Below are positions 7,335-27,164 of a DNA stretch of 27,164 nucleotides, one piece after another. The stretch is from IMG/VR virus record IMGVR_UViG_3300049169_000038, positions 1 through 27,164 of that record; one strand, 5' to 3'. Each line of letters starts with the position of its first letter. The first letter of the stretch is position 1. Origin of the DNA: a virus. Its lineage: Duplodnaviria; Caudoviricetes. The notes under the pieces were generated by a model. It ran no database searches. It was given only the letters and a program-made list of their open reading frames with translations, and was not told the origin of the DNA. A program made the position numbers and the translations under genes.

Positions 7335-7370
7335 GAGCGCCCCAACAGGTTTAGACCAGATGGGGCGCTC
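7335..7370. terminator. Hairpin between the tRNA and the integrase stop
   Basis: GAGCGCCCCA-N16-TGGGGCGCTC, 10-bp stem. Confidence 0.6.
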
Positions 7371-8940
7371 AGCCGTTGTCGGCGTCTTGCGTGAGCGGTG
7401 CGTGAGCGGCTGTGTCAGACGGCAGTGGTCGACGGGCACGCGGCACGATGCTCTCGGCGTTCCTCGCCACCTCCTGGTCCACCTGGGGGAGGAGGCTGGT
7501 GTACGTGTCGGATGCTAGCTGGATCGTGCCGTGCCGCAGCGTCTCCTTGATCGCGTGAAGGTCGCCTCCACCCGCATGGATCAGCGTTGCGGCCACGTGG
7601 CGTAGATCACGCAGGTTGATTGGCGGCAACCCGGCCTCCCGGCACAGTCGGCGGAAGACGTCCGAGACCTTTTCCGGGTGCAGCCAGCCGCCGTCCTCGT
7701 CGACGAATACCTTCCCCGTGTCCTGCCAGGGGAGGCCCTTGTCGAGGTACGCCTGGCGCTCGGCCTGCTGCCGAACGCGGTGCTCGGCCAGAACCTGCAG
7801 TGTGGCCGGCCCAAGCGCGATCGTCGCCGCACTGCCCTCCGTCTTCGGGTCGCTCTCCACCGGGGTCCATCCGTCCTGGATGATCGTCTTAGAGACCGTC
7901 AGCTGAGCCTTGGCGAAGTTGATGCCGGACCAGTCCTGGCCGACCGCCTCTCCGCGGCGCAGGCCACGGAACGCGATCAGGTGGAACAAGGCGTACAGCC
8001 GGTCCTGTTCGGCGTGGTCGAGGAACTCACCGACCTGAACCGGCGTCCAGACCATGACCCCTGACGGCTTCTCGCCGGTCTTCTGCCACCGCTCAACATG
8101 CTCAGGCGTCCACAGCACCGCCTTCGGCCGCTTGCCCGAGGCCAGCTCGACGTGCGCGGCCGGATTGAACGTGAGCAGCTGCTGGGAGATCGCCGCGTTG
8201 AGTGCGGACCGCAGCGTCGCCCGGATCCGTTGTTGAGTCGCCGGGCCGGTGACCCGCCTGTACGGGGGGAGCGCGTCCAGCTTCGCGCGCTCCGTGGCCA
8301 GCCGGGCCGTCTCGGACGCCGGCGGCCGTGACCGCTTCCCCCACGTCGCACGCGCCTGCTGCTCGCGCCGCCTCTGGTTCTCCGCCTCGATCGTCTCGTT
8401 CTGGGTGTCGATGGCGTCGAAGAACTCCACCAAGTGACCGACGTTGAGACGGTCGAGGAGGATGTGCCCGAGACCTGGCTTCAAGTGCACACGGATGTGG
8501 GAGCTGTAGCCGTTGAGCGTGGACTTCTTCCGCTTCTTCGACTCCACCCACTCGTCCAGCCAGTCCCCGACCGTCAGCTTCGACGTGAGCGGCTGGCCGG
8601 CGCGGAACCGGCGGCGCGTCTCGGCAAGGTCGGGGAGGGGGGCGTTCTTGTTCTTGCTGACTGTTTCGAGCAGGTCGCCGATTTTCGTCTGTGCTTCCTG
8701 GTCGTCGCCGGGGGCGAGGGCGAGCAGGGCCCGCACCCTGTCGAGGGCTTCCTGGGCGTCCTTGGCGGTGGCGTAGCCGGAGCGGGAGAAGGAGCGCCGG
8801 CCGCCGTCGGCACGCGGCGGGAGCTCCTGCCGTACAGCCCAGACCCCGTGGCGCCGGCTCGACAGCTGCGGGCAGGACTTGCCCAGCGCCCTGCCGTCGC
8901 CGTCCCGGCAGTAACAGCGGCGGTACGTCGAGCCCTTCAT
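7369..8940 (-). CDS. int: Tyrosine recombinase / phage-type integrase
   Basis: TVGDWLDEW and STLNGY core-binding region; catalytic GLRRGE, LRDLRH, LRH, DTYT; RBS AGGAGG; adjacent to a tRNA. Confidence 0.95.
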   Translation of the reverse strand: MKGSTYRRCYCRDGDGRALGKSCPQLSSRRHGVWAVRQELPPRADGGRRSFSRSGYATAKDAQEALDRVRALLALAPGDDQEAQTKIGDLLETVSKNKNAPLPDLAETRRRFRAGQPLTSKLTVGDWLDEWVESKKRKKSTLNGYSSHIRVHLKPGLGHILLDRLNVGHLVEFFDAIDTQNETIEAENQRRREQQARATWGKRSRPPASETARLATERAKLDALPPYRRVTGPATQQRIRATLRSALNAAISQQLLTFNPAAHVELASGKRPKAVLWTPEHVERWQKTGEKPSGVMVWTPVQVGEFLDHAEQDRLYALFHLIAFRGLRRGEAVGQDWSGINFAKAQLTVSKTIIQDGWTPVESDPKTEGSAATIALGPATLQVLAEHRVRQQAERQAYLDKGLPWQDTGKVFVDEDGGWLHPEKVSDVFRRLCREAGLPPINLRDLRHVAATLIHAGGGDLHAIKETLRHGTIQLASDTYTSLLPQVDQEVARNAESIVPRARRPLPSDTAAHAPLTQDADNG

Positions 8941-8954
8941 GAGGAGCCTCCTGG

Positions 8955-9923
8955 CTAGTCCACCAGCTCCGGGAGCTCCCCGCCCAAGGCAGCGAGCCTC
9001 CTACGCAGCGTGTCAGCCAATTCCATCACCTCAAGGTAGTCCTTCTCCCCCTCCTGGAAGTCCGCGGCCATGTCCAACAGATGTTGCAGCTCATCCTGGA
9101 TCTCGCGTCTCTGGCGCTCGTTAGGCAACTCGGCGGCGGGCTTGGCCTGCTTGCCGCGCTCGGCGGGCGCGGTCGGCCTCGCAGCAGCCCGTGCGGCCTC
9201 GTTGGCTGCGGACTCTGCCGGCGGCAGGAACTTCTTGCGGCGTGCAGCCGCGACCCACTTAGCCGCCGTGGAGTGCGGTGCCTTGAAATGGTTCGCTACA
9301 TCCCTGGTCGGCGGCAGGTCCATGTTCTCGGCATACCGATATACCTGTGCCACTTCTCGCAGGAACTCGTCCGTCATCTTGACCCGCTTACGCTTCGGTG
9401 ATGGTGCGCCACGCGCTTCGGCATACGCCTCGGCCGCGTGCGATTGCAGTTTGTCCAGCCACTCCAAGGCAACCTCTGGCCTGCGGCTACGCGTGCCGGG
9501 ACCACTCTCGTAGGCGGTGGGGTCGGTGTCCGGACGGCCCTCTTCCTCTGTGAACTCTGCCAGGTACTGAGTGATGTAGTGGATGCCCAGTCGCTTCCAC
9601 TTGTTGGGGGCAATCACCTTGCGCACGCGCTCATAAACCTCAGGCAGGTCAAAGAACACTGAAGTGGCATGAGCCATGTCCACCTCATCCTCGAAGACCT
9701 GAAAGTCCAAGAACAGGACTGTCGAACCTGCATCAACCCATGGCTGCCCGGAGATGCGGTCGTAGCCCCAGGCGTCTTCCGTCCCGATGACCAAGTGGAA
9801 GAACTCGGGTAGAAGCACCCGACCTACCTGAACCAGTTTCGGCAGGTCGGGGGCGGTGTCTCGAGCGAACCACGGGTAGGCGGCGTAACGCCAGCCGGCA
9901 GGCGGGATCAGGAAGTCGTCCAT
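8955..9923 (-). CDS. Putative regulator with a C-terminal HTH (DUF6214-like), in the repressor position
   Basis: LREVAQVYR..PPTRDVANHFKAPHSTAAKWVAAARRKKFLPP is HTH-like; 14 bp upstream of int. ATG 9923 chosen from a leaderless promoter; AT-richer than its neighbours. Confidence 0.7.
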   Translation of the reverse strand: MDDFLIPPAGWRYAAYPWFARDTAPDLPKLVQVGRVLLPEFFHLVIGTEDAWGYDRISGQPWVDAGSTVLFLDFQVFEDEVDMAHATSVFFDLPEVYERVRKVIAPNKWKRLGIHYITQYLAEFTEEEGRPDTDPTAYESGPGTRSRRPEVALEWLDKLQSHAAEAYAEARGAPSPKRKRVKMTDEFLREVAQVYRYAENMDLPPTRDVANHFKAPHSTAAKWVAAARRKKFLPPAESAANEAARAAARPTAPAERGKQAKPAAELPNERQRREIQDELQHLLDMAADFQEGEKDYLEVMELADTLRRRLAALGGELPELVD

Positions 9924-9929
9924 GTCGCC

Positions 9930-10028
9930 ATCGTGCAGGGTTAGGCAAGTCCTTGGCAAGACGCGCGCAGCGCTATGGCTAGAGATAAAGCCTAGCCACT
10001 TGTGCGACCGGAAAGGGTCTGTCAGGCT
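9930..10028. promoter_or_regulatory. Back-to-back promoters with an intervening operator-like inverted repeat
   Basis: Leftward TTGCCA-N18-CACGAT-N6-ATG(9923). Rightward TTGTGC-N17-CAGGCT-N6-ATG(10035). TGGCTAG-N9-CTAGCCA at 9976-9998. Confidence 0.65.
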
Positions 10029-10034
10029 TCAGGC

Positions 10035-10274
10035 ATGGCCGAGAACCACATCCTGCGCCTCGCACAGGTGCGTGCTGCCGTCACGAGCGGTGAAGCGCGG
10101 CGACTCCGTGAGGCCGCACGCCTATCCATTGGAGAGGTAGCCCACGCTTGTGGGGTAGACCAATCAACCATCTGGCGATGGGAGCGGGGCACCCGTTTGC
10201 CGCGAGGAGATCGGGCCTTGCGGTACGGGGACCTGATCGATTCGCTTCGCAGGCAGCTTCGGGAGACGGCGTGA
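10035..10274 (+). CDS. XRE/Cro-like HTH regulator
   Basis: RRLREAARLSIGEVAHACGVDQSTIWRWERG is a classic XRE HTH. Confidence 0.88.
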   Translation: MAENHILRLAQVRAAVTSGEARRLREAARLSIGEVAHACGVDQSTIWRWERGTRLPRGDRALRYGDLIDSLRRQLRETA

Positions 10275-10585
10275 ACGCCCTGACGATTGCCGAAATCCGC
10301 GACCTGCCTGCTGTCGTCCCGCTGTGGCCGACCGTCGGCAAGGCCCTGGGACTCGCCGAGTCCACCACCTACCAGCTCGCGGCCGAGGGCCGCCTGCCGA
10401 TTGAGGTCATCCGCCTCGGGCGCCGACGCGTCGCCCGGACCGTCGACCTCCACCGCTTCCTCGGGCTCATCCCGCAGGAGAACGGCGCCGCTCCGACGTA
10501 CCAGGTCGGAGCGTCCGCCGGAAACGGCGAAGGGCCCGGGTACCAGCCGGGCCCTCCAGTCGAGCAAACCGCATCCACGCAATAG
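10271..10585 (+). CDS. Excisionase-like DNA-binding protein
   Basis: GKALGLAESTTYQLAAEGRLPIEVIRLGRRRV is an Xis/HTH_17-like pattern; GTGA overlap with the previous gene. Confidence 0.75.
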   Translation: MNALTIAEIRDLPAVVPLWPTVGKALGLAESTTYQLAAEGRLPIEVIRLGRRRVARTVDLHRFLGLIPQENGAAPTYQVGASAGNGEGPGYQPGPPVEQTASTQ

Positions 10586-10599: not shown

Positions 10600-10863
10600 A
10601 TGCATAGCTTCGCACAGATGGCGACGCTGCCGTCGACCCAGCCCGACCCGCACGAGACCGTCACGGCCCTCGCTGCGGAGCATGGCCTGCAGATCGAGGA
10701 GTGGGACACCTCCACCCTCGACGCGAGCCTCTACGACCAGTTCGTGGCCATGTACGTCCAGACCAAGGGTGAGCGCTTCATCGTTGTCCCCGCCGGTCAG
10801 GACCCTGCGCACCGGCTCGCCGTCGTGCGCGCTCTCCTCGCGCACCCGGGGGTGACGGCATGA
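10600..10863 (+). CDS. Hypothetical phage protein
   Basis: High-GC3 ORF with an ATGA overlap to the next gene. Confidence 0.7.
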   Translation: MHSFAQMATLPSTQPDPHETVTALAAEHGLQIEEWDTSTLDASLYDQFVAMYVQTKGERFIVVPAGQDPAHRLAVVRALLAHPGVTA

Positions 10864-11324
10864 CCACCCTGACCGCCTCCCAGCGCGGTACCGCCTGGAT
10901 GCTCCGCTGGGGCTGCCCGCCCGACTGCGCCATCGACCATGACGCCCCGGGCGCCCCCGAGTGGCACGTCAGCCACCGGATCGAGACCGCCCTGCGGGAC
11001 ATCGACTCCAGCCTCACGCCCGAGGAGCGCGCCCGCTGGCCGTGGCTCGCCGCGCAGGTCGTCGTCATCTGCGACCGGCCGCAGGCATACGGCCGGCAGA
11101 CCCGCGTGTGGCTCGACTTCGGTACGTCCACCGGGGAGCTGTCCCCGGCCGAGGCCCGCCAGGCGCTCGCCGAGCTGCGCGGCTTCACCGCCCAGCTTGA
11201 GGCCGTCGTCGCCGCCGCCGAGCAGACCGCCGGCGGCGACTTCGCGGGCGACCCCGAGATAGCCCGGCTCGACCGCGAGGCCGAAGACCGGCGCATCATG
11301 GCGATCACCGAGGGGCGTCGATGA
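10860..11324 (+). CDS. Hypothetical protein, DUF6907-like
   Basis: CPPDCAIDH...WH pattern and C-terminal LSPAEARQALAELR helix; coupled at both ends. Confidence 0.7.
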   Translation: MTTLTASQRGTAWMLRWGCPPDCAIDHDAPGAPEWHVSHRIETALRDIDSSLTPEERARWPWLAAQVVVICDRPQAYGRQTRVWLDFGTSTGELSPAEARQALAELRGFTAQLEAVVAAAEQTAGGDFAGDPEIARLDREAEDRRIMAITEGRR

Positions 11325-12163
11325 GCACGCTGGAGATGGCCCTGACGGAGTCCCGCACGATGCGGGCCCAGACATCCGGCCGTGTCGATGTCCTCGACAA
11401 GGTGAAGGCGCTGGCGCTGCTGCCCGACGGCGTGCACGCCACCACCGAGATCGTCGCCTCCTACTTCGAGGTGGGAACCGACGCAATCGAGAGCATCGTC
11501 CGCCGGCATCGCGACGAGCTGACCGAGAACGGTATGGAGACCCTGCGTGGTGACGCTCTCCGTGCCTTCAATGAGACTGTCAGCCCGACAGTCTCATCCC
11601 GCCGGAACTCGCTCCGGGTCTTCACCCGCCGCACGATTCTGAACGTCGCCCAGTTGCTCACCGAGTCGGACGTCGCCCGCCGGGTCCGCACGTACCTTCT
11701 GGAAGTCGAGGAGCAGGCGACCCCGCAGCAGCGGTACGAGGGAGTCGAGCGGGCCCGTCTCGCGCAGGAACGCTTGTCCGCCATGGGGGTCGCCAAGCAG
11801 TTCGGACTGGTCAACTCCTCCTACGTCGAGGCGATGGCGCGCACCGAGCTGGCGCGGATGAACGGCCAGGAGCCGGACATCGACCCCTCGGACATCACGA
11901 TCACCTGCGACGAGTTCCTGTCGGAGCGCGGCGTCACCGGCTCCGACCTGGCGTCGGCCCGGGTGAGGCTCGGTCGCATCGTCGCCGTGCTCTACCGGGC
12001 GCGGTATGGCCAGGAACCGCAGGTGATCAAGCGACCCATCAACGGGGTGCACCGGGACGTGAAGGTGTACACGCACCGGGACATCGACCTGTTCGAGAAG
12101 GCGTGGGCCGAACTCGGTCGGCACTACGACGTGCAGGGCTCGCTGACGGGGGTGCGGCCGTGA
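11321..12163 (+). CDS. Antirepressor-like DNA-binding protein (ORF6N-like N-terminus)
   Basis: ATTEIVASYFEV..AIESIVRRHRDEL..G...LRG...LRVFTRR..LNVAQLLTESDVARRVR resembles ORF6N-type domains; early-operon position. Confidence 0.6.
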   Translation: MSTLEMALTESRTMRAQTSGRVDVLDKVKALALLPDGVHATTEIVASYFEVGTDAIESIVRRHRDELTENGMETLRGDALRAFNETVSPTVSSRRNSLRVFTRRTILNVAQLLTESDVARRVRTYLLEVEEQATPQQRYEGVERARLAQERLSAMGVAKQFGLVNSSYVEAMARTELARMNGQEPDIDPSDITITCDEFLSERGVTGSDLASARVRLGRIVAVLYRARYGQEPQVIKRPINGVHRDVKVYTHRDIDLFEKAWAELGRHYDVQGSLTGVRP

Positions 12164-12387
12164 GTGCCCCGACGAACGCCGCGTCGGCGGCCGGGGGCAC
12201 TCCCGGCCGCCGGGCCCGTGCCGACCGGCCCGTCCGCTTCGAGGACCCCGCCCGCAACGCCGCGTACTGGGCCCGTATCGACCGCATCGTCGACGAAGCC
12301 CCGCCGCTGACCATTGAGCAGAAGGCCACGCTGCGCGGCATCTTCGCGCCCGTCGTCGCCGCCATGGCCAAGGAGGAGGCAGCGTGA
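12160..12387 (+). CDS. Hypothetical phage protein
   Basis: GTGA overlaps at both ends; IVDEAPPLT motif seen in small actinophage proteins. Confidence 0.65.
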   Translation: MSAPTNAASAAGGTPGRRARADRPVRFEDPARNAAYWARIDRIVDEAPPLTIEQKATLRGIFAPVVAAMAKEEAA

Positions 12388-12701
12388 CGCGCACCCCGCT
12401 GGACACGTTCCTGTCCGACCAGGCGCTGGCCGCCGGCCGTACCGCCGCCGCTGACCCCAGCCTGGTGCCGGTCGTCGTCACCGCGGCCAACGGCGAGCAG
12501 TGCACCTGGTGCGACTGCCCCGACGGACCCGGCTCTCCGCACAACAACCCGAACTACCGGTGCGGCGGGTGCGGCACCGCCGCCAAGCACGTCGTCAGCA
12601 CCTTCTCGGGCCCCAACCGGCGCTACGACTTCCCGGCCTGCGAGAGGCACCGGGACGACATCGTCGCCGCCGTCATCGCCACCACCCAGAGATCGGCCTG
12701 A
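12384..12701 (+). CDS. Cys-rich putative zinc-binding protein
   Basis: CTWCDC, CGGC and CERH motifs; RBS AAGGAGGAGG. Confidence 0.7.
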   Translation: MTRTPLDTFLSDQALAAGRTAAADPSLVPVVVTAANGEQCTWCDCPDGPGSPHNNPNYRCGGCGTAAKHVVSTFSGPNRRYDFPACERHRDDIVAAVIATTQRSA

Positions 12702-12846: not shown

Positions 12847-13710
12847 ATGGGGTTCCTGCTTTTTCGTGAGGTGAAGACGTGGGCTCCTCCCACGCTCACC
12901 CACCAGGAGAAGCTCACGGCCCTGGTGCTGGCGGACGACGCCAACGATGAGACACGCCTGACGTACAACAGCGTCGTCGACGAGGAGATCATGCGCTGCG
13001 CCATGGTCCCCGACAGCCGAAAGATGCTTCGGATCATCGCCCGCCTCAAGCAGGAGAAGGTGCTGGAGCAGGTCGGCAAAGGGCACAACGGCCGTACCGC
13101 CAAATACCGGTTCCTCCACCTTGGGTCGGCCGACTCGAAGGATGGCGGAATCGACCACCCTACAGACCGCGTAGGGGGGTCGAATGAACCACCCTACGGG
13201 CCTGCCCAGGAAGAACCCCAGGGTGGCGAAATGAACCACCCTACGAACCCTGAAGGGTGGTCTTTTTCGACCACGAAGGGTGGTCAAAAGAACCACCCCT
13301 ACACCTCTACTTCCTCAACTACTACTTCCTCCTCTTCCGCGAACGCGTCAGAGGAGCGGCCAGAGGACCCCGCAGCCGACAAGGCGCCGAAGCCGAAGCG
13401 CAAGTCGCGGAAGAAGACGCCCCCGAGGGCGAACCCGCACCAGGTCGCCGACGACCTCACCGACGCCTTCTGGAAGGTGCACGGCAAGGGCCGGGCCCAG
13501 TCCTTCATCGCCATCCGCGGAGTCATCCGCACCGCGATCAAGAACGGCGTCGAACGCAACGACCTCGCCCGCGCCCTCGACCGCGTAGCCCGACAGGGCC
13601 GGTCGATCTCCGGCGCAACGCTCGACATCGCTCTCGGCGAGATCCGCGGACAGCAAGGCCCGTACCGCGACCCCGAGAACCAAGACGACTACGACCAGGA
13701 AGTGGCATGA
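12847..13710 (+). CDS. Putative phage replication initiator (N-terminal wHTH, internal iterons)
   Basis: EKLTALVLADDAND N-terminus, central repeat-coded linker, directly upstream of DnaC-like and DnaB genes (lambda O-like layout). Confidence 0.72.
   Translation: MGFLLFREVKTWAPPTLTHQEKLTALVLADDANDETRLTYNSVVDEEIMRCAMVPDSRKMLRIIARLKQEKVLEQVGKGHNGRTAKYRFLHLGSADSKDGGIDHPTDRVGGSNEPPYGPAQEEPQGGEMNHPTNPEGWSFSTTKGGQKNHPYTSTSSTTTSSSSANASEERPEDPAADKAPKPKRKSRKKTPPRANPHQVADDLTDAFWKVHGKGRAQSFIAIRGVIRTAIKNGVERNDLARALDRVARQGRSISGATLDIALGEIRGQQGPYRDPENQDDYDQEVA
13140..13337. repeat. Putative replication origin: five palindromic iterons plus a pyrimidine-rich tract
   Basis: GGGTGG-N9-CCACCC-type units at 13140, 13174, 13221, 13255 (N10, degenerate) and 13278. 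AATGAACCACCCTACG is exact at 13183 and 13230. Confidence 0.75.
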
Positions 13711-14489
13711 ACCAGCACTTCAGCACCCTCAGCCTCGACCACGCCGGGCTGGGTATCCCGCCCGGCCGCTACGCCCTGCCCGGCGAGCACACCGCCCGCT
13801 CCCACGCGGAGGCGGCCGGCCTCGACCCCGACCAGTTCGCCGAGCACCTGCGCGAGCACTACACCGGCCGGCGCCCCGTCGCCGACCTCGCCCCGGCCGA
13901 GTACGCGTTCCTGCGCGACGAGTTGCTGGAACAGGTCGCCGACCGCCGCCAGGAGGCCCTCGACTACTTCAACGCCCACGTGCCCCGCCGGTTCGCGCAC
14001 GCCGAGCCGGACGCGGCAGCGCGAGACTGGGCGGCCCGCGTCGTGGCCGCGCCACACGACACCCAGTCGCTGCTGCTCGTCGGACCCGTTGGCGTCGGGA
14101 AGACGCACTACGCCTTCAGCGTCCTGCGTGCGGTCGCTGAGACCGGCAGCACGATCAAGTGGCAGGCCTACACCGCGGCGAACCTGTACGCGGCTCTCAG
14201 GCCCCGTGACGACCGCCGCGCGGACTCCGACTACGAGTCCATCGCGCACGCCCCGCTGCTGTTCGTCGACGACCTGGGCGCGGCCAAGCTCACCGAGTGG
14301 GCCGAAGAGGTCACCTACCGGCTGATCAACGACCGGTACGAGCGGTGCCTGCCCTCGATCTTCACCACCAACGTGCTGCCCGGTCAGCTCGGCGCGACCG
14401 TCGGTGACCGCGTCGCCTCCCGGATCGCCGAGATGTGCGAGCGCACCGCACTCAAGGGCACTGACCGGCGGAAGAAGGTCGCCCAGTGA
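13707..14489 (+). CDS. DnaC/IstB-like AAA+ ATPase (helicase loader)
   Basis: VPRRF, Walker A GPVGVGKT, Walker B LLFVDDLG, TTN, GDRVASRI, GTDRR; ATGA overlap. Confidence 0.9.
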   Translation: MNQHFSTLSLDHAGLGIPPGRYALPGEHTARSHAEAAGLDPDQFAEHLREHYTGRRPVADLAPAEYAFLRDELLEQVADRRQEALDYFNAHVPRRFAHAEPDAAARDWAARVVAAPHDTQSLLLVGPVGVGKTHYAFSVLRAVAETGSTIKWQAYTAANLYAALRPRDDRRADSDYESIAHAPLLFVDDLGAAKLTEWAEEVTYRLINDRYERCLPSIFTTNVLPGQLGATVGDRVASRIAEMCERTALKGTDRRKKVAQ

Positions 14490-18267: not shown

Positions 18268-18317
18268 GTATCGCATCCCCCCTTGTGCGTAACCCCATGT
18301 GTGATAACCTCGGAGAG

Positions 18318-19461: not shown

Positions 19462-19826
19462 GCACCGAACCCCGCACCGTCACCGTCAACGTCTTCGTCA
19501 CCAAGCCCCTGGAGATCGACGAGCCCGAGTGGTGCGCCGGCCACCCCGACGAGCGCGCCGGATACAAGGTCGACATCACCCATTACGGGCCCGAGCACAC
19601 CATCACCGCGCCGAGCGGCGAGGAACTGTTCCGCGCGATGCTCTCCCAGTCCCCGTTCTCCGGCGTCGACCGCACCATCGGCCTGTACGTCGAGACCGGC
19701 GACTTCACCGGCACCCGCACCCCGGACGAGGTCGAGCAACTCGCCGACGCTTTCGTGCAGGCCGCCGAGCAACTCCGTGCGCTGGGCCAGGAACTCGCCG
19801 AGGTCCTCGGGGGTGAGAGCCGGTGA
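19458..19826 (+). CDS. Hypothetical protein, DUF6907-like
   Basis: EPEWCAGH...H pattern and C-terminal TPDEVEQLADA helix; coupled at both ends. Confidence 0.7.
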   Translation: MSTEPRTVTVNVFVTKPLEIDEPEWCAGHPDERAGYKVDITHYGPEHTITAPSGEELFRAMLSQSPFSGVDRTIGLYVETGDFTGTRTPDEVEQLADAFVQAAEQLRALGQELAEVLGGESR

Positions 19827-20152
19827 CCACCACCAACCTGCCCGAGCCGGTGCGTGACCTGCTCGCCGCCCTCCTGGAGGCGATCGACCTCCCGCACCCG
19901 GCCACGACCGGCGGCACCGCGGCGCACGACCGGCTGCTCGCCACCCGCGTCGTGCACGCCCGGATCACCCTGCGCAACGTCCTCGACGCCGGACCCGACA
20001 TGGGCCCGGCCTGGTACGCGCGCTACCTGCGCGAGCGTCTCGCCGAGCACCCCATCACCGGGTACGTCACCGTCGACCAGGCGCACACCGCCCTCGAAGA
20101 GGGCAAGACCTGGGCCGAGGCCGTCACCCTCCCCGGGGGTGAAGGTCAGTGA
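19823..20152 (+). CDS. Hypothetical protein
   Basis: High-GC3 ORF with GTGA overlaps at both ends. Confidence 0.7.
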   Translation: MTTTNLPEPVRDLLAALLEAIDLPHPATTGGTAAHDRLLATRVVHARITLRNVLDAGPDMGPAWYARYLRERLAEHPITGYVTVDQAHTALEEGKTWAEAVTLPGGEGQ

Positions 20153-21465
20153 GCACCCGCAACCTCACCGCGTGGGCACAGGCCCACCCGCTGCCGGCGG
20201 CCCTCGCCGCCGCCGTCGCCCTGGCCGCGCTCGTCGCGCTCGTCGTGACCGGCCGCCGGGCCGCGCGCCGTACCCCGGCCGCCGTACTCGTGGCCTCCCT
20301 CGCCGCACTCGCCTGCACCGCCTACAGCGCCGACACCAGCTGGCGGTTCGCCGAGCACAGCCTCGGCATGGTGGCGACCGAGGAGCGCGCGGCGATGTTC
20401 GCCGCCGCCGAGCTCGCCCTGTTCGCCTGCGCCCTCATGGCCCGCCAGAACCTCCGCACCCGCGGCGCCCCGGGTACACCCGGCGTACTCGTCTGGGTGA
20501 TCACCGGAGTACAGGTCATCCCCGCGTACTCCGAGTCCGGCATCGTCGGAGGTACGGTCCGCGCGGTCGTCGGCCCCGTACTCGCAGCTCTGCTCTGGCA
20601 CCTCGCCATGGGCATCGAGCTGCGCCACGCCAAGCCGGACACCGAGTCCGCGTCCCTGCCCGCTGTTCTCGCCCGCGAGGTACGCGAACGGCTGCTGTCC
20701 CGGCTCGGCCTGGCCGTGCGGGACCGGTCGGCCGAGCAGATCTCCCGCGACCGCGCCACCGTCAAGGCCGTGGCCCTGGCCGCGAAGCTGTCCGAGATGC
20801 GGCCTGGTCAGCGTGGCCGTGCCCGTGTGGCCCGGCGCCTGTCGGTGGCCGTGGGCAAGGCCCAGGCCGGCGCCTCCGACGAACAGCGCGCGAAGCTCCT
20901 CGACCTGCTCGCCGCCCGCCGCCACGCCGCCGCGCTCGCCACCATCGACCTGCCGTCGCCGTGGCAAGCCGAGCCCGAGCCGATCGCCGAGTACACCGAG
21001 CCCGCTGAGGCTGAGCCTGTACCCGAGGCGTACCCGGCACCCTCGAACGCCGTACCCGAGGGCGCACGGCTGCTGCCGATCATCGCCCGGCCCAAGCCGC
21101 CGCGAAACGAAATCCGAAACGAAACCCCGGTGCCCGTACTCGCCGCCGAGGCGCCGCGTACCCGCGCCGAGGTACACGCCGAGTACGTACCCGAAGAGGT
21201 CCGGCAAGCGGACCACGAGTACCTGACGGGCGACGACCAGGCCGCCGAAGAGGGCAACCCCGCTCAGGAAGACCCGCTCACCCAACTCAGTCTCGACTGG
21301 GCTGCCGAGCAGTTCAAGGACGAGCTGCTGGCGGGCGAGATGCCGTCCATCCGCGCCATCAAGGCCCGGCTGCGCGTCGGCCAGGACCGCGCCAAGGAGA
21401 TCCAGGACGGCTTCCGGCAGGCGCAGGTCGCCTGGCGGCTCGCCGGAACGGGGGCCCGGTCATGA
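20149..21465 (+). CDS. Multi-pass membrane protein with a C-terminal HTH (Spd/DUF2637-like spread protein)
   Basis: Several N-terminal hydrophobic helices, Pro/Glu linker, C-terminal PSIRAIKARLRVGQDRAKEI wHTH-like motif; in the same operon as TraB. Confidence 0.75.
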   Translation: MSTRNLTAWAQAHPLPAALAAAVALAALVALVVTGRRAARRTPAAVLVASLAALACTAYSADTSWRFAEHSLGMVATEERAAMFAAAELALFACALMARQNLRTRGAPGTPGVLVWVITGVQVIPAYSESGIVGGTVRAVVGPVLAALLWHLAMGIELRHAKPDTESASLPAVLAREVRERLLSRLGLAVRDRSAEQISRDRATVKAVALAAKLSEMRPGQRGRARVARRLSVAVGKAQAGASDEQRAKLLDLLAARRHAAALATIDLPSPWQAEPEPIAEYTEPAEAEPVPEAYPAPSNAVPEGARLLPIIARPKPPRNEIRNETPVPVLAAEAPRTRAEVHAEYVPEEVRQADHEYLTGDDQAAEEGNPAQEDPLTQLSLDWAAEQFKDELLAGEMPSIRAIKARLRVGQDRAKEIQDGFRQAQVAWRLAGTGARS

Positions 21466-21761
21466 GCGACCTGGAGAAGGCCGCCCGCGAAGCGGTCGAG
21501 GCCGCCGACAACGCGGAGATGGTCCGGCAGATCGCCGCGATCCTCGCTGCCCAGCAGCTCCTCGCCCAGCAGCAGCCCGCGCCGGCCCCGGCCCGGCCCG
21601 AGTTCGACGCGAAGAAGTGGCTCGTCATCGGTGGCGTCGTCGTCTCCGTCGGCATGGTCGGCGCCCTGTTCGCCGTCGCCATCGCCATCGGCGCCGTGTG
21701 CGCCACCGCCTGCCTCCTCGTACTGCGCGGCATGTGGCGCGACATCCAGAAGGGTCGCTGA
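21462..21761 (+). CDS. Small membrane protein (SpdD-like)
   Basis: Long C-terminal hydrophobic stretch WLVIGGVVVSVGMVGALFAVAIAIGAVCATACLLVL; ATGA overlap. Confidence 0.7.
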   Translation: MSDLEKAAREAVEAADNAEMVRQIAAILAAQQLLAQQQPAPAPARPEFDAKKWLVIGGVVVSVGMVGALFAVAIAIGAVCATACLLVLRGMWRDIQKGR

Positions 21762-21762
21762 C

Positions 21763-21975
21763 ATGGGCATCTTCAACCGCCGCGAGACCGCTGCTGACGA
21801 CGACGCCCGCACCGGCCGCCTTCTGCAGGGCGTCGAGAACGCCTACGCCCAGCGGACCGGCGACCCGGTCGACGGCGGACCCCTCGACGAGTTCGAGGAG
21901 ACCGTTCTCGGCGCGTCCGTGCCGCCGCCCGGCGCGTCGTACCCGCCTCCCGGCCACGGCTACCCCCGCCGCTGA
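21763..21975 (+). CDS. Hypothetical protein (70 aa)
   Basis: MGIFNRRETAADDD...; ATG 1 nt after the previous stop; high GC3. Confidence 0.6.
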   Translation: MGIFNRRETAADDDARTGRLLQGVENAYAQRTGDPVDGGPLDEFEETVLGASVPPPGASYPPPGHGYPRR

Positions 21976-22057
21976 CCGGCTGCCCGCGGGTCCCGCCTCA
22001 CCAGCGGGGCCCAAGGGGAGCCGGGACAGCCCCGGCCCACCACCGAGAGGACACTCC

Positions 22058-22219
22058 ATGTTCGGCACCAGCCACCGCGCCTACGTCGCCTCCCGCGGCG
22101 AAGGCTACGGCCGCTACTCGTACACCGTCACCTGCTCCTGCGGCGCCCAGCTCGGCACCTACGGCAGCGACTCGGCCGCGAACAGGGCGGCCCGCCAGCA
22201 CGAGAAGGCGGGGAAGTGA
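22058..22219 (+). CDS. Small putative zinc-binding protein (53 aa)
   Basis: MFGTSHR...CSCG...AARQHE; RBS GAGAGGA. Confidence 0.6.
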   Translation: MFGTSHRAYVASRGEGYGRYSYTVTCSCGAQLGTYGSDSAANRAARQHEKAGK

Positions 22220-22422
22220 CCATGCCCGCCACGAACCACGACCCGCACACCCTCGGCGAGTTGGCCAAGGTGGTCGTCCTCGGCGCCCGCATCGCTCGCC
22301 GCGACGCCCGCGGCAAGGGCACCGCCCGCCTCGAACGGCGCGTCGAGCAGATCCGCGAGCAGGCCGAAGCCCGCGAGCGCGCCGAGCGGGAGAAGCGCGA
22401 GCAGGCCCGCAAGAAGAAGTAG
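22216..22422 (+). CDS. Small basic protein of the transfer operon
   Basis: GTGA overlap; LGELAKVVVLGARIARR followed by a charged helix. Confidence 0.65.
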   Translation: MTMPATNHDPHTLGELAKVVVLGARIARRDARGKGTARLERRVEQIREQAEARERAEREKREQARKKK

Positions 22423-22510: not shown

Positions 22511-24601
22511 ATGACGGACACCGTCGTACCCGCGACCACCGAGGCTCCGAGTACGCCCGTACCCGCCGTACCCGAGCAGCCGGGTACGGTCCCGGCGCCC
22601 GTACCCGTCGACAACCCGAAGCTGCCCGCGCCTGGTGTCACCGACGAGAAGCGGAAACCGATCCTGCCCGCCTGGCTGCGGGACCGTACCGAGTTCGCCA
22701 CGGCCGCCAGGCACACCAGCAGCCGCCTCGGGTACGCCGCCGCCTACCACGGGGTACGCGCCCCCTGGTACGCCGTGCAGCTGGCCGCCATGTCCCCGCG
22801 CGGCGCCTGCCGCTTCATCGCCGGCACCAACCGATGGATCTGGGACCGGGAGGCCGCGCCGCTGCGCGACCACGCCGTGCGCACCGAGGACGTGGACGAG
22901 TACATGACCCTGGCCAGGCTGCGCGGCAACCGCGTCCGGCTGCGCGGCCTGGTCACGCTCGTCGCCGCGGTGTTCGGTACCGGCTTCGCCCTGTGGCTGT
23001 ACGTCATGGCCCCGGCATTCCTGTGGGCGTTCGCGGCCGGCGGGGTGCTGATCCTCGGCTACTTCGGCCAGCAGCCCGACGCCCCGGTCATCGGCCCGGC
23101 CGTGCTGCGCACCGAGTTGCAGAAGCTCACCGGCACGATCGTGCTGCGCGGCCTGGATTCCATCGGCAACCCGAAGATCAGTGCTGCCATCAAGAAGGGC
23201 GGCGACATGGACGGCATGCGCTTCACCTCGGAGATCGTCCGCGACGGACCCGGCTACCGCGCCGACCTCGACCTCCCGTATGGCGTCACCCCCGACGACA
23301 TCATGGAGAAGCGGGAGCAGCTCGCCTCCGGCCTGCGCCGCAAGGTCGGCTGCGTGTGGCCGTCCGGCGACCCCGACGAGCACGAGGGCCGCCTGGTGCT
23401 GTGGGTCGGCGACAAGCCGATGAACGAGACCAGCAAGCCGGCGTGGCCGCTGCTGAAGGACGGACAGGTCGACCTGTTCCAGCCCGTCGTGTTCGGCAAC
23501 GACCAGCGCATGCGCTGGGTCGAGGTCACCCTGATGTTCGTCGCAATCGTCATCGGGTCCGTGCCCCGCATGGGCAAGACGTTCCTGCTGCGGCTGCTGC
23601 TGCTCATCGCCGCGTTGGATCCGCGGGCCTGGCTGCTGGCGTTCGACCTGAAGGGGACCGGCGACCTCGGCGCTCTCGAACCCGTCGCGCACCGCTACCG
23701 GGCCGGTGAAGAGGACGAGGACATCGAGTACATCCTGCACGCGCTGCGGGAGATCAAGGAGGAACTGCGGCGCCGGGCGAAGGTCATCAAGTCCCTGCCG
23801 CGGTCCCGCTGCCCCGAGTCGAAGGTGACGCCGGCCCTGGCCAACGACAAGCGGCTCGGTCTACACCCGATCGTCCTCGGCATCGACGAGTGCCAGGTGC
23901 TGTTCGAGCACGAGAAGCACGGCGCCGAGATCGAATCGATCTGCACGGACATCACCAAGCGCGGCCCGGCGCTGGGCATCATCGGCATCTACGCCACCCA
24001 GCGGCCCGACGCGAAATCCCTGCCGTCCGGCATCTCCGCCAACGCGATCCTGCGGTTCTGCCTGAAGGTGCAGACCCACCAGGCCAACGACATGGTGCTC
24101 GGGGCCAGCATGTACAAGAGCGGGATCCGCGCGACCATGTTCAGCCGCCGCGACCTCGGTATCTGCTGGATGGCTGGCGAGGGCGACGACCCGCGCATCG
24201 TCGCCTCCGCGTTCGTTGACGCCCCGAAGGCCGAGCTGGTCGTCGCTCGGGCGCGGAAGATGCGCGAGGAGTACGGCAACATTACCGGCCACGCCCTCGG
24301 CGAAGGCCCGTCCGCCACGGTCGGTATGGACATCCTCGGCGACGTCCTGAGGGTCGTGGCCGCGAAGGAAGAGCAGGTGTGGAACGAGCGGGTCGCCGCC
24401 CGCCTCGCCGAGCTGCTGCCAGACGCCTACGGCGGGTGGACGGCCGTGAACGTCACCCAGGCACTCAAGCCGTGGGGCGTGACCATCCGCGACGTGTGGG
24501 GTGAGACCGACGACGGAGAGAAGGCCACCCGCCGCGGCTTCCGCAGGGCCGATGTCGTCGCCGCCGTGACCCGCCGAGAGGCCGACCGGCTCGCCTCCTG
24601 A
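22511..24601 (+). CDS. traB: TraB-like FtsK/SpoIIIE DNA translocase
   Basis: Two TM helices, deviant Walker A GSVPRMGKT, DLKG, Walker B IVLGIDECQ, ATQRP, C-terminal DNA-binding-like domain; RBS GGAGG. Confidence 0.88.
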   Translation: MTDTVVPATTEAPSTPVPAVPEQPGTVPAPVPVDNPKLPAPGVTDEKRKPILPAWLRDRTEFATAARHTSSRLGYAAAYHGVRAPWYAVQLAAMSPRGACRFIAGTNRWIWDREAAPLRDHAVRTEDVDEYMTLARLRGNRVRLRGLVTLVAAVFGTGFALWLYVMAPAFLWAFAAGGVLILGYFGQQPDAPVIGPAVLRTELQKLTGTIVLRGLDSIGNPKISAAIKKGGDMDGMRFTSEIVRDGPGYRADLDLPYGVTPDDIMEKREQLASGLRRKVGCVWPSGDPDEHEGRLVLWVGDKPMNETSKPAWPLLKDGQVDLFQPVVFGNDQRMRWVEVTLMFVAIVIGSVPRMGKTFLLRLLLLIAALDPRAWLLAFDLKGTGDLGALEPVAHRYRAGEEDEDIEYILHALREIKEELRRRAKVIKSLPRSRCPESKVTPALANDKRLGLHPIVLGIDECQVLFEHEKHGAEIESICTDITKRGPALGIIGIYATQRPDAKSLPSGISANAILRFCLKVQTHQANDMVLGASMYKSGIRATMFSRRDLGICWMAGEGDDPRIVASAFVDAPKAELVVARARKMREEYGNITGHALGEGPSATVGMDILGDVLRVVAAKEEQVWNERVAARLAELLPDAYGGWTAVNVTQALKPWGVTIRDVWGETDDGEKATRRGFRRADVVAAVTRREADRLAS

Positions 24602-24617
24602 GTCCCCCGAAACGGCC

Positions 24618-24702
24618 GCTAGGCCTAGCACCCCGCCCTGCTAGGCCTAGCAGCCCTGCTAGCACCCAATCCGGCCCCTGAGCAGGCAACTAGCGTCTAG
24701 CA
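24618..24702. repeat. CTAG-based repeat and palindrome cluster right after traB (clt-like)
   Basis: Seven CTAG in 82 bp; palindromes GCTAGGCCTAGC (24618-24629) and CTGCTAGGCCTAGCAG (24638-24653). Confidence 0.8.
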
Positions 24703-24753
24703 GGGGCGTCATCGAAACCCCGGGACCCGCCCGGAAGTGAGGGGAGACACCTC

Positions 24754-24978
24754 ATGCTGATCGCTATGGCCGCACTCGTTCTCGGGGCCGGCGGATACGC
24801 CGTGCTGTGCGCCGTGAAGCCGTTCGCACCGTGCCGTCGATGCTCCGGCGCGGGCGCCGTCGAGCGGTTCGGCAAGCCGCGGCTGTGCCCGCGCTGCCGG
24901 GGTCGGAAACTGCGGCTACGCGTCGGCCGTCGCGCCCACAATGCCTGGCGCCGCACCCACCAGGCCGGCACCCGCTGA
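24754..24978 (+). CDS. Small membrane-anchored protein with DnaJ-like CxxCxG zinc motifs
   Basis: Hydrophobic N-terminus, CRRCSGAG and CPRCRG; RBS GAGGGGAG. Confidence 0.72.
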   Translation: MLIAMAALVLGAGGYAVLCAVKPFAPCRRCSGAGAVERFGKPRLCPRCRGRKLRLRVGRRAHNAWRRTHQAGTR

Positions 24979-24992
24979 CCCATCATGGAGGC

Positions 24993-25193
24993 ATGGAGTC
25001 CCAGTACATCCGGCCCGGCCACCTCACCGCGCACCAGACCGCACGCGTCCTCGGCGTCACCCTCACCGGCCTCCGCAGCATCGTCCACCGCGGCCAGCTC
25101 ACCCGCTCCGGCGGCAGCCCCCGACAGCCCTGGTACGCCGCCAGCGACGTCGCCGCCCTCGCCGCCAAGCGCGCCCACCGGGCCGCCGCTTGA
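24993..25193 (+). CDS. Small HTH protein (MerR/Xis-like)
   Basis: LTAHQTARVLGVTLTGLRSIVHRGQL...WY...DV; preceded by GGAGG and CATCAT-N6-ATG. Confidence 0.72.
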   Translation: MESQYIRPGHLTAHQTARVLGVTLTGLRSIVHRGQLTRSGGSPRQPWYAASDVAALAAKRAHRAAA

Positions 25194-25416: not shown

Positions 25417-25836
25417 ATGCGCATCCGCATCACCCTCGGCGCCCTCACCGCCGCCGCACTCCTCACGCTCACCGCCTGCGAGGACACCGAGGACACCAGC
25501 CCCACCAAGCCGGGCACCGACACCCCGGCCAGCAGCCCGGCCAAGCAGGACCCGGAACAGTCCGACACCGCCGAGACGGACACCGGCGCATCCGACGAGG
25601 CCCCGGCCGAAAACGCGGAACTCCCCAACCTCGTCGGCATGGACCTCCAGGCCGCACAGGACAAAGCGCAAGCCGCCGGCTTCTACAGCCTCGACGACCA
25701 GGACGCCAGCGGCCAGAACCGCCTGCAGGTCCTGGACCGCAACTGGATCGTGTGCAGCCAGAAGCCCGCGCCCGGCACACATCCGACGGACACTCTCGTC
25801 ACCCTGTTCGCAGTCAAGGACACCGAAAGCTGCTGA
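25417..25836 (+). CDS. Lipoprotein with a PASTA-like domain
   Basis: Signal peptide with lipobox LTAC, acidic linker, LPNLVGMDLQAAQ...VCSQKPAPG. Confidence 0.85.
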   Translation: MRIRITLGALTAAALLTLTACEDTEDTSPTKPGTDTPASSPAKQDPEQSDTAETDTGASDEAPAENAELPNLVGMDLQAAQDKAQAAGFYSLDDQDASGQNRLQVLDRNWIVCSQKPAPGTHPTDTLVTLFAVKDTESC

Positions 25837-25850
25837 CACCTCATTCGTCC

Positions 25851-25882: not shown

Positions 25883-25902
25883 TCGCACGCCCCGGAGGCC
25901 CC

Positions 25903-26157
25903 ATGCGAGAGCGTCGATGCCCCTACCAGTACCGGCACACTCCCCACGAGCACCAATCCGGCGGGGCCCCCGCCCAATGCGACGGACGCCCCGACGCTCC
26001 CCAGGAGCCCGAAGGCCTCCCGCCCGGCCTCCTCCTGAAGCTGACTGTTGCCGTCAGCGACGTCCTGGACGAGTGCCCCGAGCACAACACGTTCGCCCAG
26101 CACGAACACGTCGTGCACGAGGTCGTGGCCGCTGTGCTGCAACGCCTCCAGGAGTAG
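25903..26157 (+). CDS. Hypothetical protein
   Basis: RBS GGAGG; ends 2 nt before the HNH gene. Confidence 0.6.
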   Translation: MRERRCPYQYRHTPHEHQSGGAPAQCDGRPDAPQEPEGLPPGLLLKLTVAVSDVLDECPEHNTFAQHEHVVHEVVAAVLQRLQE

Positions 26158-26159
26158 GC

Positions 26160-26534
26160 ATGGTCGCCCGCCGAGCCCTGCAGGTCTGCCCCACCCCAGG
26201 CTGCTCCACGCTCACCCCCAGCGGACGCTGCGAGGGCTGCCAGCGCACCGCCAGCAGTCAACGCCCCAGCGCAGCCTCCAAGGGCTACGACACCCGCTGG
26301 GCCCGCACACGAGCCGAGTACCTGCGCGCGCACCCCTACTGCGAGTGCGACGAGTGCGAGGCGCTTCCTCCCCTACTCAGGCCCAGGGCTACCGAGGTCA
26401 ACCACCGCGACGGGCTCGGACCTCTCGGACCTCGTGGACACGACTGGGCGAACCTGCAGGCCATGACCAAGGCCCACCACTCACGCGAAACCGCGAAGCA
26501 CCAGCCCGGAGGCTGGAACGACCGCCAGTACTGA
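26160..26534 (+). CDS. Phage HNH endonuclease of the terminase-associated type (HK97 gp74-like)
   Basis: CPTPGC...RC..C, RPSA..KGYDTRW..TR..YL..HPYC, ATEVNH, DWANLQAM...HHSRET; RBS AGGAG. Confidence 0.82.
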   Translation: MVARRALQVCPTPGCSTLTPSGRCEGCQRTASSQRPSAASKGYDTRWARTRAEYLRAHPYCECDECEALPPLLRPRATEVNHRDGLGPLGPRGHDWANLQAMTKAHHSRETAKHQPGGWNDRQY

Positions 26535-26577
26535 TGAAGGCCCAACGCCTAGACGCACCATCGGGCAGCATGCCTCC

Positions 26578-27105
26578 ATGGCCGACTGCACCGCCTGGAG
26601 AAGGCGCTCCGCACGCCACATCACGCTGGCTCTCGCTCTGATCGCCGTCCTGACGACGGCTTCAGCGTGCGCCAGCACGCTAGAAGGTACACAAAAGCCG
26701 CTCAGCCGTACTGCAACGACGAAAGCGGATGATGTCAAGAGGTTCACTCTGCGCATCCCACAGCACGATCACATGGGCAAGGTCAGCTACACCAACCTCC
26801 ACGTGACGCTGGAATGCACCCCTTCGCATCAGGTGCAGGTCACTCTGTACACGAAGGGCGCAAGGGACGACCTGCTCTTGACCGTAACCTCCGAACCACA
26901 CGGCCTCCCCGTCCAGGGCTGGCACCAAGTACGAGTGGACATGAGTCGAACCGATCTCTGGCGCCGTACCACCGCGCGGATTTGCCCCAACGGCCTGAGA
27001 CATGGTGTCAGCATCGAAGTGATGTCCCTCAAACAGCGAGAGCAGTACGGCATCAGACAACAGAGCGGCTCGAAAGGCACCGAGGTCAGTCACGCTCAGT
27101 CGTAG
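26578..27105 (+). CDS. Hypothetical exported protein or lipoprotein, AT-richer cargo
   Basis: RRRSARH followed by hydrophobic ITLALALIAVLTTASAC; codon usage differs from the neighbours; start uncertain. Confidence 0.5.
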   Translation: MADCTAWRRRSARHITLALALIAVLTTASACASTLEGTQKPLSRTATTKADDVKRFTLRIPQHDHMGKVSYTNLHVTLECTPSHQVQVTLYTKGARDDLLLTVTSEPHGLPVQGWHQVRVDMSRTDLWRRTTARICPNGLRHGVSIEVMSLKQREQYGIRQQSGSKGTEVSHAQS

Positions 27106-27164
27106 CAGGGGTGGGGGGTGACCCCTTCCGAGTAGGGGTTCCGGAACGCCGGGGAGGGCTCTGG

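What the first reader, a model, noticed from the sequence alone, without database searches (positions are those of the whole stretch)
7369..27164. Prophage-AICE hybrid: a phage backbone carrying a TraB conjugation operon
Seen: the gene order is int, repressor-position HTH, Cro, Xis, antirepressor-like, initiator with iterons, DnaC, DnaB, then GGDEF, Spd-like genes and TraB, then a packaging-type HNH and a cos-like stretch. Known: described AICEs (pSAM2, SLP1, pMEA types) pair TraB with RepSA/RepAM or prim-pol replicases, while initiator-DnaC-DnaB plus a gp74-like HNH is temperate siphophage architecture. I saw no rolling-circle Rep. Inference: a single element that may spread both by hyphal TraB transfer and by virion packaging (conjugative prophage or satellite). 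The transfer genes are co-oriented and mostly translationally coupled, with no second integrase or att, which argues against two tandem elements.
Basis: partly seen in the sequence, partly recalled or inferred. Interest (0 to 1): 0.88.

Follow-up and report, generated by a model that had tools for sequence, protein, structure and literature searches.

The report
Streptomyces prophage with a mating pump
A dormant virus in a soil Streptomyces carries the DNA pump and matching docking repeats that Streptomyces plasmids use for mating, so it likely spreads from cell to cell without virus particles as well as with them; one plasmid-type virus with such a pump is already known.

Summary
Confirmed, with corrections. 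The window is the left arm of one temperate phage inserted at tRNA-Met (att core 7250-7295). It carries an intact TraB-type FtsK pump, an SpdB-like four-helix membrane gene and a CTAG repeat cluster right after traB (candidate clt). The record ends about 90 nt before the packaging genes, so this copy's virion genes are unseen. Its last bases match a motif that precedes the terminase genes in relatives. Two relatives are whole 38-42 kb prophages between att repeats, with one integrase, the same TraB, and head, tail and lysin genes. This is no one-off phage-AICE fusion but a swappable slot: among relatives found without using TraB, 9 of 16 carry TraB, of three other types, each followed by its own repeat; 7 carry none. 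The same TraB also sits on AICEs and satellite-like elements. Transfer itself is untested. Precedents: plasmid-phage pZL12, SpdB2 homologues on phiC31/VWB. No isolated INPHARED phage matched this TraB. This scan already reported the same kind on other DNA (e1-6242619, e1-6245136, e1-5766484). New variant of a known kind; interest 0.6.

The parts
7221..7295 (+). tRNA-Met(CAT), insertion site; att core = 7250-7295 (46 bp)
   Evidence: ARAGORN; the same 46 bp lies between lysin and integrase in record G411 with unlike upstream DNA
7369..8940 (-). Tyrosine integrase (523 aa)
   Evidence: PF00589 3.8e-10, phrog_1 6e-50; 93-95% identical in G411, G412, G414
8955..9923 (-). Repressor-position ORF (322 aa), no family found; repressor role inferred from position only
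   Evidence: No hit; Atlas leads only
10035..10274 (+). XRE-type HTH in Cro position
   Evidence: HTH_31 3e-10
10271..10585 (+). Excisionase-like HTH (weak)
   Evidence: HTH_17 9e-4, AlpA 8e-3, both below cut-off
10600..12701 (+). Five coupled early ORFs incl. DUF6907 (10860-11324) and a 280-aa ORF weakly like antirepressors (11321-12163)
12847..13710 (+). Likely replication initiator with four internal repeats (13139-13302), candidate origin
   Evidence: Repeat family D5; position before DnaC/DnaB; 78-79% in L129/L130; no initiator family hit
13707..14489 (+). DnaC-like helicase loader
   Evidence: phrog_50 1.5e-33
14486..15814 (+). DnaB-like helicase
   Evidence: PF03796 3e-93
16217..17125 (+). 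Cargo: nucleoside 2-deoxyribosyltransferase-like domain fused to a DUF559/MTES_1575 nuclease domain
17641..18267 (+). phrog_1467 protein; marks the left edge of the slot in relatives
   Evidence: phrog_1467 9e-33
18297..18527 (+). Small HTH protein, possible regulator of the transfer operon (inferred)
   Evidence: HTH_50 1.5e-5
18814..19461 (+). Stand-alone GGDEF protein with intact GGDEF motif
   Evidence: PF00990 8e-29; translation
19458..20152 (+). DUF6907 protein and a 109-aa ORF, both recurrent upstream of TraB
20149..21465 (+). SpdB-like membrane protein (438 aa, four predicted helices)
   Evidence: Hydropathy; Atlas neighbours with DUF2637 (10%) and HTH_SpdB_C (56%, score 0.87, lead only); no BLAST match to pSVH1 SpdB2
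21462..22422 (+). Four small ORFs (99, 70, 53, 66 aa), Spd-position genes shared with relatives
22511..24601 (+). TraB-type FtsK/SpoIIIE translocase (696 aa): two membrane helices, motor, C-terminal winged helix
   Evidence: 29% over 346 aa to pSVH1 TraB, E 3e-30; model matches FtsK motor, E 4e-15; C-terminal model pLDDT 94, winged-helix neighbours Z 5-6
24615..24705 (.). Candidate clt: seven CTAG words in direct and inverted repeats just after the traB stop
   Evidence: 4-8 CTAG in 91 of 91 clade members with enough sequence; same position as pSVH1 repeats
24754..24978 (+). Small membrane-anchored zinc-finger protein that follows TraB in most contexts
24993..25193 (+). Small HTH-like ORF; marks the right edge of the slot in phages with and without TraB
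   Evidence: fold label from appearance, no family hit
25417..25836 (+). Secreted PASTA-domain protein (cargo)
   Evidence: PF03793 3.5e-5
26160..26534 (+). HNH endonuclease of the packaging position
   Evidence: phrog_144 3e-21; 87% to the HNH before the terminase genes of G006
27108..27164 (+). Conserved G-rich motif that lies 104-124 nt before the small-terminase-position gene in relatives; record ends here
   Evidence: L005, L051, L109, L003; 481 nt before terL in L112

Best explanation
The window is the left arm of a tRNA-Met-inserted Streptomyces phage that carries a TraB pump gene, an SpdB-like membrane gene and a repeat cluster after traB, and it likely moves its excised circular DNA into neighbouring hyphae without particles, besides likely making tailed virions. 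Inferred steps: Int and the Xis-like protein excise the element at the 46-bp att core; initiator, DnaC and DnaB copy the circle; the winged helix of TraB binds the CTAG repeats; the membrane-anchored hexamer pumps double-stranded DNA into a recipient hypha; the SpdB-like protein helps it cross cross-walls; Int re-inserts it at tRNA-Met. The module fills a swappable slot between the early and packaging genes, and pump and repeat are exchanged as a pair.
For: Single element: G006 (42.3 kb, 47-bp att repeats) and G007 (38.0 kb, 46-bp) hold one integrase, TraB 78%/73% identical, and terminase-to-lysin genes; G003-G005 are circular records with the same content. The window's own lineage has virion genes: G411 (Int 95%, DnaC 91%, DnaB 94%, SpdB-like 78%) shows attP between lysin and integrase plus tail genes; G412 sits at the same tRNA site with a TraB and virion genes. 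End motif precedes terminase genes. TraB is full length with Walker A and B in 93 of 93 clade members, FtsK motor fold and a winged-helix C-terminus. CTAG cluster in 91 of 91. Three other TraB types in the same slot each have a different downstream repeat (6-8 copies against 0.2-0.4 expected), and the 7 TraB-less phages have no CTAG cluster. Close phage pairs give dN/dS 0.10 (L001-L053) and 0.18 (L003-L051); window-L014 0.19.
Against: No transfer, binding or expression data exist. This copy's virion arm is not in the record. No GntR-type TraR/Kor repressor was found in the window, though it is usual beside traB (PMC4447253, passage). 7 of 16 informative relatives lack TraB, so it is dispensable. 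Median pairwise dN/dS is higher among 16 phage copies (0.36, range 0.10-0.59) than among 20 of the 45 AICE copies (0.19); the method is crude for high-GC DNA. Phage and satellite copies interleave on the tree (at least 10 forced changes), so selection may have acted on satellites. The residue aligned to pSVH1's second arginine in 'RGRAAG' is proline in all 93; that this is the arginine finger is recalled. The Pfam FtsK score (20.9 bits) is under the cut-off of 24. The repeat motifs of the other clades were picked by eye.
Confidence: 0.55

Rival explanations
1. The module works only within one colony. After infection or induction, TraB and the SpdB-like protein push phage DNA across cross-walls into adjacent compartments to widen the infection; no transfer to other mycelia occurs.
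For: All 7 TraB-less relatives keep an SpdB-position membrane gene. SpdB2 homologues on phiC31 and VWB were proposed to help phage DNA spread (PMC4447253, passage). The operon is co-oriented between early and packaging genes and lacks a GntR repressor.
Against: TraB plus clt is the minimal unit for transfer between mycelia in plasmids (PMC3583192, passages); pump and repeat are kept as a pair in every type seen.
Confidence: 0.2
2. TraB and its repeats are passengers, repeatedly picked up by recombination with satellites and AICEs that share the flanking genes, and do nothing for the phage.
For: The window's nearest TraB (95%) is on a satellite-like element, L015; phage labels are not clustered on the tree beyond chance (86 of 500 shuffles as low). 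7 of 16 relatives lack it. Higher dN/dS in phage copies.
Against: Fixed slot, intact reading frames in all 16 phage-labelled loci, repeats retained, four TraB types, five terminase types (at most 38% identical between types); dN/dS 0.10 between two whole prophages.
Confidence: 0.13
3. This particular copy has no working virion arm: it is a defective prophage or a TraB element inserted next to or inside another element.
For: The record stops before any terminase gene; public contigs of the one run that holds it stop at the same base.
Against: HNH 87% identical to that of whole prophage G006 and the pre-terminase motif at the very end; no flanking repeats or second recombinase; piece depths are similar along the element (15-33).
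Confidence: 0.07
4. The pump has another job: segregating excised circles, mobilising host chromosome from the integrated repeats, or acting with the membrane protein in defence.
For: FtsK-family motors have such roles (PMC3218068, passage); weak PADLOC mad8 hit over the ATPase part only.
Against: Closest contexts are AICEs and Spd-type operons; the repeat position copies pSVH1's clt.
Confidence: 0.05

Closest known systems
Streptomyces plasmid-phage pZL12 / phage ZL12 (GQ919031; Zhong et al. 2010, seen only as citing passages and the GenBank record)
   Same: A tailed Streptomyces phage genome that also encodes an FtsK/SpoIIIE-like gene (pZL12.71c); cited as transferring by a major tra gene plus two adjacent genes (PMC3583192).
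   Different: pZL12 is a 90.4-kb circular record with ParA/ParB and a GntR regulator. Here: 35-46 kb chromosome-inserted prophages, no Par or GntR gene found in the window, a TraB that did not match ZL12 by tblastn at 1e-5, and a swappable pump-plus-repeat slot.
TraB-clt-Spd transfer system of pSVH1 (and pWTY27 TraA-clt)
   Same: Spd-type membrane gene and small ORFs, then traB, then short repeats directly after the stop; motor 29% identical; membrane helices and C-terminal winged helix.
   Different: Different repeat (CTAG-centred, direct and inverted, against GACCCGGA); no sequence match to SpdB2; no TraR found; carried by a prophage, not a rolling-circle plasmid.
AICEs with Prim-pol replicases (SLP1, pMEA/pSE211 types; PMC3218068, PMC2440964)
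   Same: Tyrosine integrase at a tRNA 3' end, FtsK-type Tra, GGDEF accessory gene (listed for pSE211, pSAM2, AICESco5349). 46 of 93 loci with this TraB have an AICE-like layout.
   Different: Replication by initiator-DnaC-DnaB, not RepSA, RepAM or Prim-pol; integrase at the phage-type end; packaging and virion genes follow.
Temperate Streptomyces siphophages phiSASD1 and Dubu; phiC31 and VWB
   Same: TerL of the matching packaging module is 60% identical to phiSASD1/Dubu; phiC31 and VWB are reported to carry SpdB2 homologues (PMC4447253).
   Different: No INPHARED phage matched the window's TraB, SpdB-like or phrog_1467 protein. Only Gilgamesh (129 kb) gave a weak FtsK hit with another TraB type (E 2e-4).

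Membership tests
AICE (Ghinet 2011 criteria: Int + Tra + Rep) | Tyrosine or serine integrase at an att site, usually a tRNA 3' end | tested here: met
AICE (Ghinet 2011 criteria: Int + Tra + Rep) | FtsK/SpoIIIE-domain Tra protein | tested here: met
   BLAST to pSVH1 TraB E 3e-30, fold; Pfam score below cut-off
AICE (Ghinet 2011 criteria: Int + Tra + Rep) | RepSA, RepAM or Prim-pol replicase | tested here: not met
   No such hit in Pfam/PHROGs; DnaC and DnaB instead
AICE (Ghinet 2011 criteria: Int + Tra + Rep) | Conjugative transfer and pock formation | not testable with these tools
   needs mating assays
TraB-clt-Spd transfer system | N-terminal membrane anchor plus FtsK motor with Walker A and B | tested here: met
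   helices 147-185; GSVPRMGKT and LGIDE
TraB-clt-Spd transfer system | C-terminal winged helix | tested here: met
   Predicted model pLDDT 94; top rows mostly winged-helix domains, best Z 6.3, rmsd 3.4 over 70 residues; Foldseek no hit at E 0.001; moderate strength
TraB-clt-Spd transfer system | Repeat locus (clt) next to traB | tested here: met
   position, conservation and type-specificity
TraB-clt-Spd transfer system | TraB binds the repeats and translocates DNA | not testable with these tools
   needs EMSA and transfer assays
TraB-clt-Spd transfer system | SpdB2-type four-helix membrane protein | tested here: inconclusive
   four helices, Atlas lead, no BLAST match to pSVH1 SpdB2
TraB-clt-Spd transfer system | GntR-type TraR/Kor repressor | tested here: not met
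   none among window ORFs; satellite-like L021 has one
Temperate tailed phage (integrated prophage) | Integrase, att core, divergent early operon, replication genes | tested here: met
   repressor itself not identified
Temperate tailed phage (integrated prophage) | Terminase, head, tail and lysis genes in this copy | tested here: inconclusive
   record ends before them; end motif and whole relatives point to them
Temperate tailed phage (integrated prophage) | Inducible particle production | not testable with these tools
   needs induction
Plasmid-phage (pZL12 type) | Extrachromosomal prophage with ParA/ParB | tested here: not met
   inserted at host tRNA-Met with host genes upstream; no Par hit in the window
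Phage satellite (PICI-like) | Small element lacking a full virion set | tested here: inconclusive
   already 19.9 kb at the break and heading into a terminase module; right arm unseen

The most novel reading that the evidence does not exclude
A widespread group of chromosome-inserted Streptomyces siphophages has a second, particle-free route of infection: TraB pumps the excised genome from hypha to hypha, bypassing receptors and lysis. Phages, satellites and AICEs draw on one pool of pump-plus-address cassettes with at least four specificities, so elements sharing a specificity could mobilise each other.
Probability: 0.45. Interest if true: 0.82.

Novelty: new variant of a known kind. Interest (0 to 1): 0.6.

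Why it matters
If the pump works, temperate phages of filamentous bacteria can spread as naked double-stranded DNA through hyphal contact, out of reach of receptor changes and without killing the donor. That would blur the phage/AICE boundary and mean that AICE surveys requiring RepSA/RepAM/Prim-pol miss a class of transfer-capable elements. It is directly testable: named, cultured strains hold whole examples (Streptomyces typhae p1417, L051/G006; S. caniscabiei NE06-02D, L053/G008), and natural TraB-less relatives serve as controls. The principle is not new (pZL12), which caps the score.

Tried and rejected
Reading past the window: impossible, the window is the whole record; public contigs of the single holding run end at the same base and may be its source; no RNA holder listed. 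Looking for attR/attP in that run: contigs join the 46-bp core to other DNA, but they cannot be assigned to this element; not used as evidence. Separate inserted element at 18-25 kb: no flanking repeats above chance, no second recombinase. Sigma-70 promoter and terminator scan: nothing above shuffles. Repressor-position ORF: no family. Foldseek on the C-terminal model: no hit at E 0.001. INPHARED: no match for window TraB, SpdB-like or phrog_1467 proteins, nor for L109 DNA. No convincing att repeat of 18 nt or more in G008, G009, G010 (serine integrases), G412, G413, G414, G415. The IQ-TREE run did not finish; the tree is FastTree only. The pZL12 paper was not available; its results are second-hand. 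Eight literature searches listed no paper describing TraB-clt in integrated Streptomyces siphoprophages; subscription journals are mostly not held, so this is not proof of absence. Supplements were not read; AICE tables of PMC3218068 and PMC9513070 could include such prophages under AICE names.

Full report
OBSERVATION. The window is a whole 27,164-nt virus record, so nothing beyond it can be read. Host genes (sigma factor, ABC transporter, sugar kinase) and tRNA-Asn, Asn, Met fill the first 7.3 kb. No HTH was found in the repressor-position ORF and the antirepressor label is weak. The host genus is inferred from the relatives, which are Streptomyces.

ONE ELEMENT. The att core is 7250-7295: record G411, the closest early-region relative (Int 95%, DnaC 91%, DnaB 94%, membrane gene 78%), carries these 46 bp between its lysin and integrase with unlike DNA upstream, the layout of an excised circle, followed by tail genes. 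G411 is a fragment and lacks the part where TraB would lie. No repeat above chance flanks the transfer genes. The window's last bases match a G-rich motif that lies 104-124 nt before the gene in the small-terminase position in L005, L051, L109 and L003 (PHROGs calls that gene 'minor tail'; the terminase label is from position). The record therefore likely breaks about 90 nt before the packaging genes. Whether the motif is cos is untested.

RELATIVES WITH THE SAME TraB. I fetched 14 IMG/VR loci and the best 80 of 203 GTDB hits. 92 of these 94 hold a TraB ORF over 600 aa (L063 is cut at its end, L083 is split). By a crude label on flanking genes, the 93 rows with the window are 46 AICE-like, 16 phage (14 distinct proteins), 12 with an opposite-strand tape measure gene, 6 with opposite-strand primase or capsid, 2 probable phage, 11 unclear. 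Ten phage examples were read at length (G001-G010): all show capsid and tape-measure genes and one integrase for the element, and 8 of 10 a labelled endolysin. G006 (S. typhae) is 42.3 kb between 47-bp repeats of a tRNA-Thr end, with TraB 78% and HNH 87% identical to the window's; G007 is 38.0 kb between 46-bp repeats. G003-G005 are classed as direct-terminal-repeat records. G008-G010 have serine integrases and gave no clear att repeat. The 15 terminases fall into five types, at most 38% identical between types.

THE PUMP AND ITS ADDRESS. TraB aligns with pSVH1 TraB over the motor (29%, E 3e-30). Its model (mean pLDDT 74) matches FtsK motors (E 4e-15). The last 92 residues fold confidently and resemble winged-helix domains at moderate Z. 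Walker A and B are kept in 93 of 93; the position of pSVH1's 'RGRAAG' second arginine is proline in all 93, AICEs included, so it is a clade trait, not phage decay. Seven of the window's 14 CTAG lie within 80 bp after the stop (0 of 100,000 random placements), and 91 of 91 members with enough sequence have 4-8 CTAG there. pSVH1's repeats lie in the same position, and published clt loci are repeat clusters next to tra that the protein binds (PMC4447253 and PMC3583192, passages). Binding here is inferred.

A SWAPPABLE SLOT. To avoid selecting on TraB, I searched viral contigs with the phrog_1467 protein (22 loci). Six end too early. Of 16 informative loci, 9 carry a TraB and 7 do not (7 and 6 after merging near-copies). 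These TraBs are 25-36% identical to the window's and form three further types. Each type is followed by its own repeat: GTAG(A/T)G-type 6-7 copies, CAGTG-type 7-8, TTTCG-type 6, against 0.2-0.4 expected, with almost no cross-occurrence (motifs picked by eye). G412 uses the window's tRNA site with another TraB type; G414 uses it with none. All 7 TraB-less phages keep a membrane gene in the SpdB position and have no CTAG cluster. On a FastTree of 86 rows, one branch (35 rows, support 85) holds 13 phage, 16 satellite-like and the window's copy, another (46 rows, support 90) holds 41 AICE-like copies; phage copies interleave with satellites (at least 10 forced changes), and the window's nearest is satellite-like L015 at 95%. 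dN/dS is 0.10-0.19 in close pairs, but the median over phage pairs (0.36) exceeds that over 20 of 45 AICE rows (0.19); the method is crude at this GC content.

HOW IT LIKELY WORKS. Shown: genes, repeats, att core, co-occurrence with virion genes in whole relatives. Inferred: excision, theta replication, TraB loading on the CTAG cluster, pumping of double-stranded circles into a contacting hypha, SpdB-assisted passage of cross-walls, re-insertion at tRNA-Met, with virions as the second route (0.55). Rivals: spread only inside a colony (0.2); passenger traded with satellites (0.13); this copy defective (0.07); another job for the pump (0.05). No GntR repressor was found, so control may rest on the phage switch or the small HTH at 18297; this is a guess.

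COMPARISON WITH WHAT IS KNOWN. It works like the pSVH1 TraB-clt-Spd system but is not an AICE by the Int+Tra+Rep rule (PMC3218068, passages), since the replicase type fails. pZL12 is the precedent for a conjugative Streptomyces phage; I saw only citing passages and its record, a 90-kb circle with ParA/ParB, an FtsK-like gene and a GntR gene. SpdB2 homologues on phiC31 and VWB are noted in PMC4447253, and pWTY27 joins tra, spd, int and a capsid gene. PMC9513070, PMC2440964, PMC12282955 and PMC13587820 were seen as passages only. No INPHARED phage matched this TraB; another type hit only Gilgamesh weakly. Eight searches listed no description of the integrated form. Earlier notes of this scan report the same kind on other DNA; they are unchecked and add no independent support.

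VERDICT. Real, conserved and recurrent; a new variant of a known kind. Function is untested. Interest 0.6.

Noticed in passing
L002/L021, L015, L050, L074, L020, L022 (about 6-21 kb of each locus): Small integrated elements with integrase and primase that carry the same TraB-repeat module plus a capsid gene (L002/L021) or HNH and small-terminase-like genes (L050, L022): satellite-like elements that may move both ways. pWTY27 is a published plasmid with tra, int and a capsid gene.
   Followed up: partly
L006, L010, L019, L023, L026, L044, L054, L071, L086, L089, L091, L093, downstream of TraB: Twelve loci have a large tape-measure-like gene on the strand opposite TraB with no terminase or capsid label within 10 kb; boundaries not mapped.
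   Followed up: partly
window:18814-19461: Stand-alone GGDEF protein with intact motif and no RxxD before it (motif role recalled); similar genes precede TraB in 3 AICE-like loci (L039, L077, L085). Could alter c-di-GMP and delay sporulation in donor or recipient; untested.
   Followed up: partly
window:16217-17125: Fusion of a nucleoside 2-deoxyribosyltransferase-like domain and a DUF559-type nuclease, possibly defence cargo; 81% DNA match in G200; only partial PADLOC hits.
   Followed up: no
window:8955-9923: 322-aa ORF in the repressor position with no family; a related stretch lies beside the integrase of G005.
   Followed up: partly
window:26578-27105: Lower-GC stretch with an ORF of no family between HNH and the pre-terminase motif, about 500 nt longer than the same gap in L051; likely a moron.
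   Followed up: no
L083:10001-12052: TraB is split into two ORFs in this AICE-like locus; the only split copy among 94.
   Followed up: no
L164:8473-10386: Isolated phage Gilgamesh (129 kb, tyrosine integrase) has an FtsK-like gene beside a membrane gene; a cultured test case for phage-borne pumps.
   Followed up: no
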